Source: a virus
Lineage: Duplodnaviria; Heunggongvirae; Uroviricota; Caudoviricetes
Strand: one strand, 5' to 3'
DNA: 27,871 nucleotides
IMG/VR virus record: IMGVR_UViG_2563366804_000001
Span: 1 to 27,871 of that record
Made by a program: the position numbers. Below are positions 9,001 through 12,000 of this stretch, piece after piece. Position 1 is the first letter of the stretch. Each line of letters begins with the position of its first letter.

Positions 9001-12000
9001 CCAGTAATACTGTCCACCCAAAATTTTTGGGGGAATGGAGCAGACTTATCAAATGTAAAAGACATGTCGAACCTCCTTTGGTTCTGTTGATTGGGGAATC
9101 ACAGATTATATCCGGAGGAAGGTTCGACACCAGATGAGGCAATTATGGTTAAGGCTAAAAATATGCCAAATCCCATGCCAAAAACTAAGGCAAACAATGA
9201 GCCTTATCGCAAGGTAAAAATAACGATATGGGATGATCCCAAATTTAGGGCGTTATCTCCTCTGCCTCCAAGTGGACAGAGTTTGTTTATTTATCTGCTG
9301 ACCAGTCCATTTACCGGGATTATTCCTGGGTTGTTTAAAGCCGGGCGGGCAGCAATGGCTGAAGAGTTGGGGTGGGATATCGAAGCCTTTGACTTAGCCT
9401 TAGGAGAAGCCATGAATCTTGGCATGGTGAAAGCAGATATCAAAGCCAGAGTTTTTTGGCTCCCGAATGCTGCGAAACACAATCCGCCAAACTCGATAAA
9501 TGTCATTAAATCCTGGGCAAAGGCATTCGCTTTAATTCCTGATTGCCCTCTCAAATGGGAGGCCAGAGAATCGCTGAGAGCCGCGTCCTACGGGGTTTCT
9601 GAGGCTTTGGGGATGGCATTCGATAAGGCAATCCCTTTGCCTGAGGATAAGCCTAAGGATAAGGCTAACGCTTTGTCATGCGGTATCCAGATAACAGATA
9701 ACAGATAACAGATATATAAACCCCACACATAACGCGCGCGAGAGTGCTCCGGCCAGTGAGGCAAATGGCGTGCCGTTGCAGACAGCGGAACCTGATTACC
9801 TGGAAGGCCTGAGCGAACCCATTGGGAAATTTCCGATGACCGATGGCTGGCATCCGTCGCCGGATTTTCGACGACGGGCGGCTCTGTGGGGAGTGGCTCT
9901 GCCGGAGCCGGAATTTACACCTGCTGAACTTGCCGCCTTCCGGGACTACTGGGCAGCGGAGGGGAAAGTTTTCACGCAGGTTCAGTGGGAGCAGAAATTC
10001 GCCCGTCACGTACATCACGTCAGGGCGCAGGTTAAACCAGTCAGCAAGGGGGTGAGCCATGCAGCAGCACCAGGCGGCACCGCATCACGGGCAGTTCAGG
10101 AAATTCGGGCAGCACGTGAGCAGTGGGAACGTGAAAACGGATTTATCAGCGACGGAAACGGCGTGGAAGCTGTGGGAACTCATGGGGGAGGTTTATTCGA
10201 ACCGCTGGACCCAGAAGAACGGGGCCGCACCTTCGAAGCTCTGGATTGCACAGATTGGTGCGATGACTGAGCAGCAAATCCGGCAGGTCTGCCGCCAGTG
10301 CATGGACCGCTGCCGGGCGGGTGAAACATGGCCTCCGGACCTGGCTGAGTTTGTGGCGCTGATTTCGGAAAGCGGAGCCAATCCATTCGGTCTGACGGTG
10401 GATGCCGTGATGGAGGAGTACCGACGCTGGCGCAATGAGTCCTGGCGATACGACGGAAGCGATAAATACCCGTGGACTCAGCCTGTGCTGTATCACATTT
10501 GCCTCGAGATGCGTTCAAAGGGGATTGAGCGTCAGATGACCGAAGGGGAGTTAAAACGACTTGCAGAACGGCAACTGGCGAAATGGGCAAAGCATGTTGG
10601 TGATGGCTTCAGCGTTCCGCCCGTACGGCGGCAACTGGCAGCACCAGAACGCCCGTCGGGGCCAACACCAATTGAGTTGCTGAAACAGGAATATGAACGC
10701 CGGAAAGCGGCGGGGTTTGTTTGAGTTGAGAAGTGATTTTTACCGGGAGGAAATTTTAATGGAGACCGTTTTTGACGCACTGAAAGCAATGGGAAAAGCC
10801 ACGTCGGTAGAGCTGGCTGAGCGACTTGATATCAGTCGTGAAGAAGTACTGAACGAGCTGTGGGAACTGAAAAGGGCTGGCTTCGTTGATAAAAGCGTAT
10901 ACACCTGGCGTGTGGCTGATAACAACGTTCAGCAGGAACAGCCAGCGCCAGAAGAACAGCCGGAAGAAACCACCACGGCGACAGTAGCGAAAATCTCAGA
11001 GTGCGATTTAACCGCAACGATTGAACAACGCGGACCACAAACGGCTGATGAGCTGGCTACATTGTTTGGTACCACATCACGCAAAGTGGCTTCAACGCTG
11101 GCAATGGCAATCAGCAAAGGTCGTCTGATTCGCGTAAATCAGGGCGGTAAATTTCGTTACTGCATACCGGGCGATAATTTACCAGCAGAGCCGAAAGCAG
11201 CATCGGTAGCGGAAACTGATGGTAAGGCCTTTCCTCAGCCCGCAGGTGTTGCATTACCAGTACAGGAGGCTGCAACACAGGAAGATATTAAAACAGAAAC
11301 GGTGGTGGACATTGTGCAATCGCTGCCATCGTTTACTGAAACGCGAGCGGATGACCTGGTTTTACCATCGCTGCATATGGCAAACCGCGAACTGCGTCGG
11401 GCGAAAAATCATGTCCAGAAGTGGGAGCGAGTCTGCGCCGCGCTGCGGGAGCTGAACAAGCACCGGGATATTGTTCGACAGATTGTCGATTCCTCCAGTC
11501 GTATTGTGTCGGAAAAGTGATTGCCGGAGGCACCTATGGCAAAAGTATTTACACCAGAAGAGCGGGAAAAAATTAAAGGGCAGGTTGTTGAACTTGTACG
11601 TCTGAGCGGTCGCGAGACGTTACGGGCTCTGGAGGCTAAAACCGGTGCATCAAGGTATTACATAAGCACTCTCGCCAGAGAACTGGTCGCCAGTGGTGAT
11701 GTTTACAATTCAGGCTACGGATTATTCCCGTCTGAGCAGGCGCGTAAAGACTGGCAAAACGCCCGCAAAAAACTCTCAAGGGCAAATCTGAAGAAACCAT
11801 CTGTGGTTGATCCGGATCTTATCTGGTCATTACCAGACGGAGAAATACGCCGCTACAACAGGCGTCTGAACATAATTTGCCGTGAGTGCCGGAAGAGTGA
11901 GGTTATGCAGCGAGTGCTGGCGTTTTATCAGGGGAAATTTCAGGAGGTGATGCTGTGAGCGAATCAAAATGTCAGGTTAATGGCAATCAGATAGAACCGT

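What the first reader, a model, noticed from the sequence alone, without database searches (positions are those of the whole stretch)
9688..9715. Heptamer tandem repeat (CAGATAA)x3 splits the replication initiator gene; loss of one unit would fuse the two ORFs
The 9145..9708 ORF stops at a TAA created by the third repeat copy, and the downstream frame (9770..10270, with a DnaT-like signature) is open from 9695, inside the repeat. Deleting one 7-bp unit gives a continuous frame (…IQITDNRYINPTHNARESAPASEANGVPLQTAEPDY…), which I checked by hand. This is either a slipped-strand inactivation of the initiator, consistent with a cryptic prophage, or a slippage-prone on/off switch.
Basis: seen in the sequence. 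Interest (0 to 1): 0.55.

Follow-up and report, generated by a model that had tools for sequence, protein, structure and literature searches.

The report
Repeat slippage splits prophage replication gene
An extra copy of a 7-base repeat has broken the replication-initiator gene of an already defective Rac-type prophage in E. coli; the same small repeat has slipped independently in several other strains, so it is a mutation hot spot, but this is an ordinary way for a prophage gene to die.

Summary
At 9688-9714 there is a perfect (CAGATAA)x3+CAGATA tract. The 187-aa ORF 9145-9708 ends at the TAA of the third unit, and the +1 frame, open from 9695 to 10270, encodes a DnaT-like domain.

All 36 other complete E. 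coli genomes with this initiator have a length consistent with two full units and one continuous annotated gene; the six read at sequence level have exactly two. Two isolated phages also encode one continuous gene of 372-375 aa. A near-identical sister prophage (B4103-1) differs across 27.9 kb only by 3 SNPs, this 7-bp unit and one hexamer unit. The prophage was already defective before this change.

The event is a recent slipped-strand gain that splits a lambda-O-like initiator. It is real: the exact truncated product occurs on at least 39 contigs. It is also recurrent. The three-unit allele sits on three haplotypes, each with a two-unit sibling 0-1 substitutions away. The predicted one-unit product is also in public data, on 38 contigs.

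Only two units give a full-length protein, because three or more units place TAA in every frame. Recurrent decay at a hot spot is therefore the best reading. A reversible switch is not excluded but has little support. Interest is low to moderate.

The parts
9688..9714 (+). Heptamer tract (CAGATAA)x3 + CAGATA. Intact alleles have two full units, so one unit here is an extra slipped copy.
   Evidence: TRF; unit coordinates; two-unit alleles in relatives.
9145..9708 (+). Truncated 5' part of the initiator gene (187 aa). It holds the DnaD-like / replisome-organiser N-terminal domain plus linker and ends at the premature TAA 9706-9708. GAGG at 9136-9139 lies 5 nt before ATG 9145.
   Evidence: PHROG 1408 'replication initiation protein' positions 3-138 and PHROG 1701 'DnaD-like helicase loader'. 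RefSeq calls it hypothetical protein WP_001594009.1.
9695..10270 (+). 3' remainder of the initiator gene in the +1 frame, holding the DnaT-like ssDNA-binding domain and C-terminal tail. PGAP annotates 9716-10270 as a pseudogene 'missing N-terminus'. GTG 9770 is preceded by GAGG at 9758-9761 and could start a 166-aa fragment.
9639..9674 (+). 12-bp repeats (GCCTGAGGATAA GCCTAAGGATAA GGCTAA...) that encode the PEDKPKDKA linker. In-frame unit gains occur in other strains.
   Evidence: TRF; an extra unit in L005 and L006.
9730..9740 (+). GCGCGC stretch where most relatives carry an in-frame 6-bp GCGCGT gain. It serves as a marker separating haplotypes just downstream of the heptamer tract.
10263..10724 (+). 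Lambda-P-like helicase-loader gene. Its ATG overlaps the initiator stop (ATGACTGA), so its translation is probably coupled to the initiator reading frame.
   Evidence: Pfam PF06992; PHROG 109; annotation.

Best explanation
The window is a defective 28-kb Rac-type prophage at ttcA in E. coli. Its replication module encodes a two-domain initiator that is a functional analogue of lambda O. The N-terminal domain is DnaD-like / replisome-organiser. A low-complexity, AT-rich linker joins it to a DnaT-like C-terminal domain, and a lambda-P-like helicase loader gene follows.

The linker-coding DNA normally contains CAGATAA CAGATAA CAGATA. In this strain, replication slippage added one 7-bp unit. Translation therefore runs straight into the TAA of the third unit and the gene is split.

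Shown by tool results: the extra unit, the split, the intact two-unit state in relatives, how recent the event is, and its recurrence.

Inferred, by analogy with lambda O: the origin-binding half is no longer tethered to the half that recruits the helicase loader, so the initiator is non-functional. Translation of the coupled P-like gene is probably reduced as well.

The tract is a mutational hot spot that has slipped independently several times, in both directions. Only n=2 gives a full-length protein, because three or more units put TAA in all three frames. It therefore behaves as a recurrent inactivation site in a gene that no longer matters to a defective prophage, not as an evolved switch.
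For: 1. Structure and frames.
2. The source record annotates 'hypothetical protein' plus 'DnaT-like ... pseudogene, missing N-terminus'.
3. In the other 36 complete E. coli genomes with this N-domain, the gene is one continuous CDS. Their lengths differ from this window by -7, -7+6 or -7+18 bases. The six sampled at sequence level have exactly two units.
4. DNA pattern scans give 31 two-unit to 1 three-unit in IMG/VR and 4 to 0 in metagenomes.
5. The fused protein matches PHROG 1408 end to end (positions 3-302 of 302, E=2e-90), while the two window ORFs match positions 3-138 and 172-302.
6. Isolated phages vB_Apl-pPE4 (98% identity) and Citrobacter phage Chris1 (64% identity) have one gene of 375 and 372 aa.
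7. Of 120 listed relatives of the N-domain, almost all are 280-330 aa two-domain proteins.
8. With the unit removed, the gene is under purifying selection across about 28 haplotypes: pN/pS is 0.17-0.20 overall and 0.04-0.05 in the N half.
9. Recency: the whole window differs from the B4103-1 prophage by 3 SNPs, the 7-bp unit and one 6-bp unit.
10. It is not an artefact: the exact 187-aa product is on at least 39 contigs and in 97 index blocks.
11. Recurrence: the three-unit allele sits on three haplotypes that differ by 22-30 substitutions over 1310 bp of flanks. Each has a two-unit sibling 0-1 substitutions away.
12. The 186-aa product predicted for a one-unit allele (...QITDI) was found on 38 contigs.
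13. The prophage is already defective, and the sister with an intact initiator is equally defective.
Against: No experiment shows that the split initiator is inactive. A GAGG-N8-GTG at 9758-9772 could allow a separate C-terminal fragment to be made. PHROG 25711 is a family of about 164-residue proteins resembling the N-domain alone. The initiator is kept intact, with few substitutions, in sister copies of the same defective prophage. That could mean it still matters there, in which case recurrent ON/OFF changes might not be neutral decay.
Confidence: 0.85

Rival explanations
1. The tract is a genuine contingency locus. Reversible gain and loss of a heptamer unit would switch the prophage initiator, and hence in-situ replication from a Rac oriJ-type origin, on and off in the population.
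For: The unit length is not a multiple of three and the tract lies inside a coding region. Alleles with 1, 2 and 3 full units all exist in nature. There were at least three independent gains. Between near-identical prophages, 2 of the 5 differences are repeat-unit changes. The intact gene is under purifying selection. K-12 Rac is reported to have an active origin, oriJ (PMC3945230).
Against: The ON state has only 2 full units, far shorter than the tracts of known phase-variable genes (my own knowledge). There is a single ON state: n=1 and n>=3 are all OFF, and n>=3 carries TAA in every frame, so further expansion cannot restore the frame. OFF alleles are rare: 1 of 37 complete genomes and 1 of 32 IMG/VR loci. 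The three-unit allele is stably inherited across about 21 similar contigs. Purifying selection is explained just as well by the module circulating in functional phages such as pPE4 and Chris1. No reversion was observed.
Confidence: 0.09
2. The split is tolerated. The 187-aa N-terminal fragment and a separately initiated C-terminal fragment (GTG 9770) would work together. Alternatively, the N-terminal fragment alone has gained a role, such as occupying cognate origins and blocking replication of related incoming phages.
For: There is an SD-like GAGG 8 nt before GTG 9770. PHROG 25711 is a short family matching only the N-domain. The truncated ORF keeps its own good SD and an unchanged N-domain on three haplotypes.
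Against: The GAGG-GTG is also present in intact alleles, where it merely encodes SEANGV, so it did not evolve for this purpose. Natural relatives are nearly always single two-domain proteins. The events are too recent for conservation to say anything. By analogy with lambda O, tethering of the two halves is needed to bring the loader to the origin (established knowledge; not tested here).
Confidence: 0.05
3. The extra unit is a sequencing or assembly artefact, or full-length protein is restored by programmed frameshifting.
For: The source is a single chromosome-level WGS assembly.
Against: The same truncated product appears in at least 39 contigs from independent assemblies and on three haplotypes. 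By inspection, there is no slippery site in the 14-nt overlap 9695-9708: no P-site codon (CAG, AUA, ACA, GAU, AAC, AGA) can re-pair in the +1 frame.
Confidence: 0.01

Closest known systems
Lambda O / P replication module, with the origin inside the O gene
   Same: The module has the same layout. An initiator with an N-terminal origin-specificity domain, a flexible linker and a C-terminal partner-recruiting domain is followed directly by a P-family helicase loader (Pfam PF06992). There is mosaic exchange of N-domains at the linker. The middle of the gene contains repeat-rich, AT-rich DNA: GC is 0.35 at 9660-9719 against 0.5-0.65 in the flanks.
   Different: No sequence similarity to lambda O was detected. 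The N-domain is DnaD-like / replisome-organiser (PHROG 1701, 6251) and the C-domain is DnaT-like (PF17948). Whether the origin lies in this gene has not been tested.
ydaU-ydaV-ydaW replication region of Rac (E. coli K-12; phage Rac-SA53)
   Same: Same prophage family and integration site (intR/ttcA), and the same gene order: ydaT, initiator, P-like, DUF1627. The C-terminal half is about 90% identical to Rac-SA53 YdaU.
   Different: Rac-SA53 YdaU has a different N-domain (a partial E. coli hit is annotated DUF1376) and no CAGATAA array. Its linker reads ...AAAGATACAGATACAGATCT.... The ydaUVW functions are described as undetermined in PMC11014345.
Simple-sequence-repeat contingency loci (phase variation by slipped-strand mispairing), for example the heptanucleotide repeats at Haemophilus influenzae hmw genes (from my own knowledge)
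   Same: A tandem repeat whose unit length is not a multiple of three, whose unit number differs among close relatives and determines whether the product is made.
   Different: The tract is very short (2-3 units) with a single ON state. OFF alleles are rare and appear to be terminal. It lies in a decaying prophage gene of E. coli, a species not known for repeat-mediated phase variation.
Primosomal protein DnaT
   Same: Residues 219-296 of the fused protein match the DnaT C-terminal ssDNA-binding domain (PDB 4OU6 and 6AEP, E about 2e-20; PF17948).
   Different: The score is 96 bits against an NCBIfam equivalog cut-off of 201. Only the domain is shared, so this is not a DnaT orthologue.

Membership tests
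Phage two-domain replication initiation protein (PHROG 1408; annotated 'DnaT-like ssDNA-binding domain-containing protein') | N-terminal replisome-organiser / DnaD-like domain | tested here: met
   ORF 9145-9705 matches PHROG 1408 positions 3-138 (E=2.7e-13) and PHROG 1701 (E=1.2e-13).
Phage two-domain replication initiation protein (PHROG 1408; annotated 'DnaT-like ssDNA-binding domain-containing protein') | C-terminal DnaT-like ssDNA-binding domain | tested here: met
   PF17948 E=3.5e-18; PHROG 1408 positions 172-302, E=3.5e-65; PDB DnaT chains E=2e-20.
Phage two-domain replication initiation protein (PHROG 1408; annotated 'DnaT-like ssDNA-binding domain-containing protein') | Both domains in one polypeptide | tested here: not met
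   The gene is split by the frameshift and TAA at 9706-9708. The feature is met in all sampled relatives. The window therefore holds a disrupted member, a pseudogene.
Phage two-domain replication initiation protein (PHROG 1408; annotated 'DnaT-like ssDNA-binding domain-containing protein') | Followed by a P-family helicase loader gene | tested here: met
   10263-10724: PF06992 E=3.9e-16; PHROG 109 E=4e-54.
Lambda-type origin embedded in the initiator gene | Array of initiator-binding iterons next to an AT-rich stretch inside the gene | tested here: inconclusive
   There is an AT-rich dip at the tract and 12-bp repeats just upstream. All 5 GATAAGSC sites of the window lie in 8897-9665 (a post hoc motif). 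Sister types have 5 GTCACGA repeats at the equivalent place. No binding or replication data are available.
Simple-sequence-repeat contingency (phase-variable) locus | Intragenic tandem repeat with a unit not divisible by three, with unit-number polymorphism among close relatives | tested here: met
   The 7-bp unit shows n=2 and n=3 at DNA level and n=1 at protein level. There were at least 3 independent gains.
Simple-sequence-repeat contingency (phase-variable) locus | Long tract with several alternating ON and OFF lengths | tested here: not met
   Of n=0-6, only n=2 is full length. For n>=3, translation stops at TAA whatever the frame. The observed range is 1-3 units.
Simple-sequence-repeat contingency (phase-variable) locus | High-frequency reversible switching within a clone | not testable with these tools
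   This needs read-level or culture data. About 21 similar contigs share the three-unit allele, which suggests stability.
Frameshift pseudogene | Disrupted relative to intact orthologues that are under purifying selection, with no recoding signal | tested here: met
   Intact orthologues. pN/pS 0.17-0.20. No slippery site by inspection of 9695-9708. PGAP also flags a pseudogene.
Programmed +1 ribosomal frameshift site | Slippery codon allowing P-site tRNA re-pairing in the +1 frame before the 0-frame stop | tested here: not met
   Codons CAG AUA ACA GAU AAC AGA UAA offer no +1 re-pairing. This is by inspection only.

The most novel reading that the evidence does not exclude
The heptamer tract is a bona fide bidirectional slippage switch in E. 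coli that toggles the replication competence of Rac-type prophages. In addition, the OFF state may leave a stable 187-aa origin-binding fragment that interferes with replication of incoming phages using the same origin type. Recurrent truncation would then be selected as a domesticated defence rather than being neutral decay.
Probability: 0.08. Interest if true: 0.6.

Novelty: new member of a known kind. Interest (0 to 1): 0.3.

Why it matters
It gives a clean, dated example of how a cryptic prophage loses its replication initiator. A single 7-bp slippage event is visible against a sister prophage that differs by only three SNPs. The same tiny repeat has failed independently in several lineages and in both directions. 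This is useful for annotation: the 'hypothetical protein' WP_001594009.1 and the adjacent pseudogene are two halves of one gene, and PGAP's 302-aa start for the intact gene cuts into the N-domain. It is also relevant to prophage domestication, because it flags a natural pair of ON and OFF alleles for testing whether Rac-type in-situ replication matters to the host. It does not reveal a new kind of system.

Tried and rejected
Domain identities therefore rest on PHROG, Pfam and PDB sequence matches.
That allele is confirmed only by an exact protein match.
- Exact look-ups found nothing for a zero-unit product, for a truncated product carrying the extra 12-bp unit, or for one carrying the pPE4 K-variant.
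- A full-text search for ydaU + ydaV + replication found no papers. The oriJ papers give no sequence-level origin map.
- Pfam and NCBIfam have no model for the N-domain.
- A single origin of the three-unit allele followed by recombination was rejected. It would need conversion tracts under about 150-220 bp, bounded by markers at 9567 or 9591 and at 9735, on three backgrounds.
- Programmed frameshifting was rejected by inspection of the codons.
- A sequencing artefact was rejected because the allele appears in many independent assemblies.
- I did not use the genome-contig scan. It holds one genome per species and is uninformative for allele counts within E. coli.

Full report
**1. What is in the sequence**

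Positions 9688-9714 hold a perfect period-7 array: CAGATAA at 9688, 9695 and 9702, followed by CAGATA (TRF: 3.9 copies, 100% matches). About 3e-7 such tracts are expected by chance in a window of this size, and the 13-mer CAGATAACAGATA occurs 3 times against 0.01 expected.

The frame-1 ORF runs from ATG 9145, with GAGG 5 nt upstream; a TTG at 9091 is also possible. It ends at TAA 9706-9708, the last three bases of the third unit, giving 187 aa that end ...CGIQITDNR.

Frame 2 has TAA at 9692-9694 and is then open from 9695 to TGA 10268-10270. Its product matches the Pfam DnaT domain (PF17948, E=3.5e-18) and solved DnaT C-terminal domains (E about 2e-20).

**2. Where it comes from**

The window matches E. 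coli MB06101 (NZ_CM129890.1, seawater, Galapagos). It is not byte-identical: the record has one fewer TGTGCC unit at about 18474.

The window is essentially the whole of a 28-kb Rac-type prophage between ttcA and uspF. It carries intR, xisR, ralR, recET, kilR, ydaT, the replication module, hokD and tail-fibre genes. It has no capsid or terminase genes and several annotated pseudogenes, so it is a defective element. RefSeq already annotates 9145-9708 as a hypothetical protein (WP_001594009.1) and 9716-10270 as a 'DnaT-like ... missing N-terminus' pseudogene.

**3. What the gene is**

- With the extra unit removed, the protein matches PHROG 1408 'replication initiation protein' end to end (positions 3-302 of 302, E=2e-90). 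The two window ORFs match positions 3-138 and 172-302 separately.
- The N-half also hits 'DnaD-like helicase loader' and 'replisome organizer' families.
- The C-half carries a DnaT-like domain but scores far below the DnaT equivalog cut-off (96 against 201 bits).
- The next gene (10263-10724) is a lambda-P-family helicase loader whose ATG overlaps the initiator stop.

This is the lambda O/P layout built from different domains. The tract lies in the AT-rich, low-complexity linker between the two domains, where GC is 0.35 against 0.5-0.65 in the flanks.

**4. Comparison with relatives**

- Thirty-seven complete E. coli genomes carry this N-domain type. Only the window's strain has the long tract. 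The other 36 have one continuous annotated gene, with lengths differing by -7, -7+6 or -7+18 bases.
- The six read at sequence level have exactly two full units. The other length differences are in-frame: a 12-bp GGCTAAGGATAA unit and a 6-bp GCGCGT.
- A gapped pattern scan able to detect 1 to 5 units found 31 two-unit loci and 1 three-unit locus in IMG/VR, and 4 two-unit loci in metagenomes.
- Isolated phages vB_Apl-pPE4 (98% identity, two units) and Citrobacter phage Chris1 (64% identity) encode one continuous gene. In Chris1 the tract is degenerate: CAGAAAG CAGTTAG CAGTAAA CAGATCT.
- Among 120 listed relatives of the N-domain from Enterobacterales to Xanthomonadales, almost all are 280-330 aa two-domain proteins. 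The few short ones are mostly partial.
- Across about 28 haplotypes the repaired reading frame shows pN/pS of 0.17-0.20 overall and 0.04-0.05 in the N half.

That is not met, so the single-gene reading stands.

**5. How recent, and is it real?**

The prophage of strain B4103-1 (O27:H7) sits at the same locus with the same defects and has the intact initiator. Over the entire 27,871 bases it differs from the window by three SNPs, the 7-bp unit and one CTGTGC unit at about 18456. The frameshift is therefore very recent and did not cause the prophage's defectiveness.

It is not a sequencing error. The exact 187-aa product is on at least 39 contigs and in 97 index blocks of the public collection, in three different gene neighbourhoods.

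**6. Recurrence**

The three-unit allele sits on three haplotypes: the window, L012 (identical to L025), and L013. These differ from each other by 22-30 substitutions over 1310 bp of flanking sequence.

Each has a two-unit sibling that is identical or one substitution away: window = L002; L012 is 1 substitution from L004; L013 = L026, L039 and L045. A single origin would need three gene-conversion tracts shorter than about 150-220 bp, so at least three independent gains are the parsimonious reading.

I then predicted the product of a one-unit allele (186 aa...CGIQITDI) and found that exact sequence on 38 contigs. The DNA could not be fetched. The tract therefore slips in both directions in nature.

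The hexamer tract at 18453-18483 shows three alleles among three near-identical prophages. In these elements, short repeats change about as fast as all point substitutions combined.

**7. Switch or decay?**

Modelling n=0-6 units shows that only n=2 yields the full protein. n=1 stops after ...ITDI, and with n>=3 the TAA of the unit falls in every frame.

There is thus a single ON state and no periodic ON/OFF series. The tract is short. OFF alleles are rare at DNA level (2 of 73 loci). The three-unit allele is shared by about 21 similar contigs. Another strain inactivated the same gene with IS1 (H28).

These points favour a hot spot for inactivating mutations in a gene that is dispensable in a defective prophage. 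A reversible 2<->3 toggle is not excluded and cannot be tested here.

**8. Mechanistic consequence (inferred)**

By analogy with lambda O, the N-domain binds the origin and the C-half recruits the P-like loader with the host helicase. Separating them should abolish initiation.

The P-like gene, whose start overlaps the initiator's stop, probably also loses translational coupling. A GAGG-N8-GTG at 9758-9772 could allow a free C-terminal fragment to be made. However, the same sequence is present in intact alleles, so it is not an adaptation. No slippery codon in 9695-9708 would support programmed frameshifting.

**9. Origin question (not resolved)**

Sister initiators with other N-domains carry five GTCACGA repeats followed by a variable (AGATAAAGATAC)n. 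They join the same C-terminal module at ...TAAACCCCACACATAACGCG. In the window, 12-bp repeats and a cluster of GATAAGSC sites precede the heptamers (the motif was chosen post hoc).

This resembles the lambda arrangement of iterons plus an AT-rich stretch inside the initiator gene. If so, unit number might also affect the origin, but nothing here tests that. K-12 Rac is reported to have an active origin, oriJ (PMC3945230), and the ydaUVW functions are called undetermined (PMC11014345).

**10. Verdict**

The 'switch' alternative is supported only to the extent that the site is demonstrably slippage-prone.

This is a new, well-documented instance of a known kind of event. The modest added interest is that it is a recurrent, bidirectional hot spot with a single ON length.

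Noticed in passing
window 18453-18483 (inside the TerB-like pseudogene 18141-18573, + strand): The hexamer tract TGTGCC x5.3 (encoding LCLCLC) has three different unit numbers in three near-identical prophages. NZ_CM129890.1 has one unit fewer and B4103-1 one more. The window is therefore not identical to the RefSeq record it otherwise matches.
   Followed up: partly
window 18232-18338 (A7 run at 18292-18298): The TerB-family gene is annotated as frameshifted in both sister prophages. The two open frames overlap around a run of seven A, which is a plausible site of the frameshift.
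   Followed up: no
window 9639-9674 and about 9735: The initiator linker carries other repeat polymorphisms, all in-frame. Strains STEC306-308 and Z1324SEC0014 have an extra 12-bp GGCTAAGGATAA unit, and most relatives have a 6-bp GCGCGT gain.
   Followed up: yes
L003 1880-2140, L009 about 1080-1250, L010, L017 about 1370-1560 (equivalent to window about 9560-9735): Initiators with unrelated N-domains join the same C-terminal module at ...TAAACCCCACACATAACGCG. One is annotated 'pyocin large subunit' and another is Rac-SA53 YdaU (a related partial E. coli hit is annotated DUF1376). Just upstream they carry GTCACGA iteron-like repeats and a variable (AGATAAAGATAC)n encoding (TDKD)n. This looks like a lambda-style origin and mosaic junction inside the gene.
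   Followed up: partly
window 10059-10724: The P-like gene is annotated from ATG 10263 (153 aa) and overlaps the initiator stop. A longer ORF from 10059 (221 aa) overlaps the initiator's C-terminal 212 nt in another frame. The Pfam lambda-P match starts 13 residues upstream of the annotated start. PHROG 15931 (482 positions) spans the initiator C-half plus P, as if they were fused in some phages.
   Followed up: no
L002 3055-4173 (equivalent to window 9145 onward): PGAP starts the intact homologues at an internal ATG (302 aa; equivalent to window 9355). The PHROG 1408 match begins at residue 20 of the 372-aa form, and a GAGG precedes ATG 9145. The RefSeq start therefore probably truncates the N-domain.
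   Followed up: partly
window 8897-9665: All five GATAAGSC sites in the 27.9-kb window fall in this 770-bp stretch around the initiator gene (1.5 expected for the whole window). They are candidate initiator-binding sites, but the motif was chosen post hoc.
   Followed up: partly
L015 (PP818812.1, 'Actinobacillus phage vB_Apl-pPE4') 1501-3079: A phage deposited as infecting Actinobacillus pleuropneumoniae carries a replication module 98% identical to this E. coli Rac-type module, along with dicA and ydaT neighbours. The host attribution looks questionable.
   Followed up: no
NZ_CP137737.1 (hit H28, strain HNSQ2209) 2185681-2187666: The same initiator gene is interrupted by an IS1 element in another strain, which is an independent route to inactivation.
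   Followed up: no
L016 (Citrobacter phage Chris1), about 2040-2075 of the locus: In the 64%-identical homologue the tract persists as four degenerate heptads: CAGAAAG CAGTTAG CAGTAAA CAGATCT. The CAG-every-7 periodicity is kept while the frame stays open. The reason is unknown.
   Followed up: no
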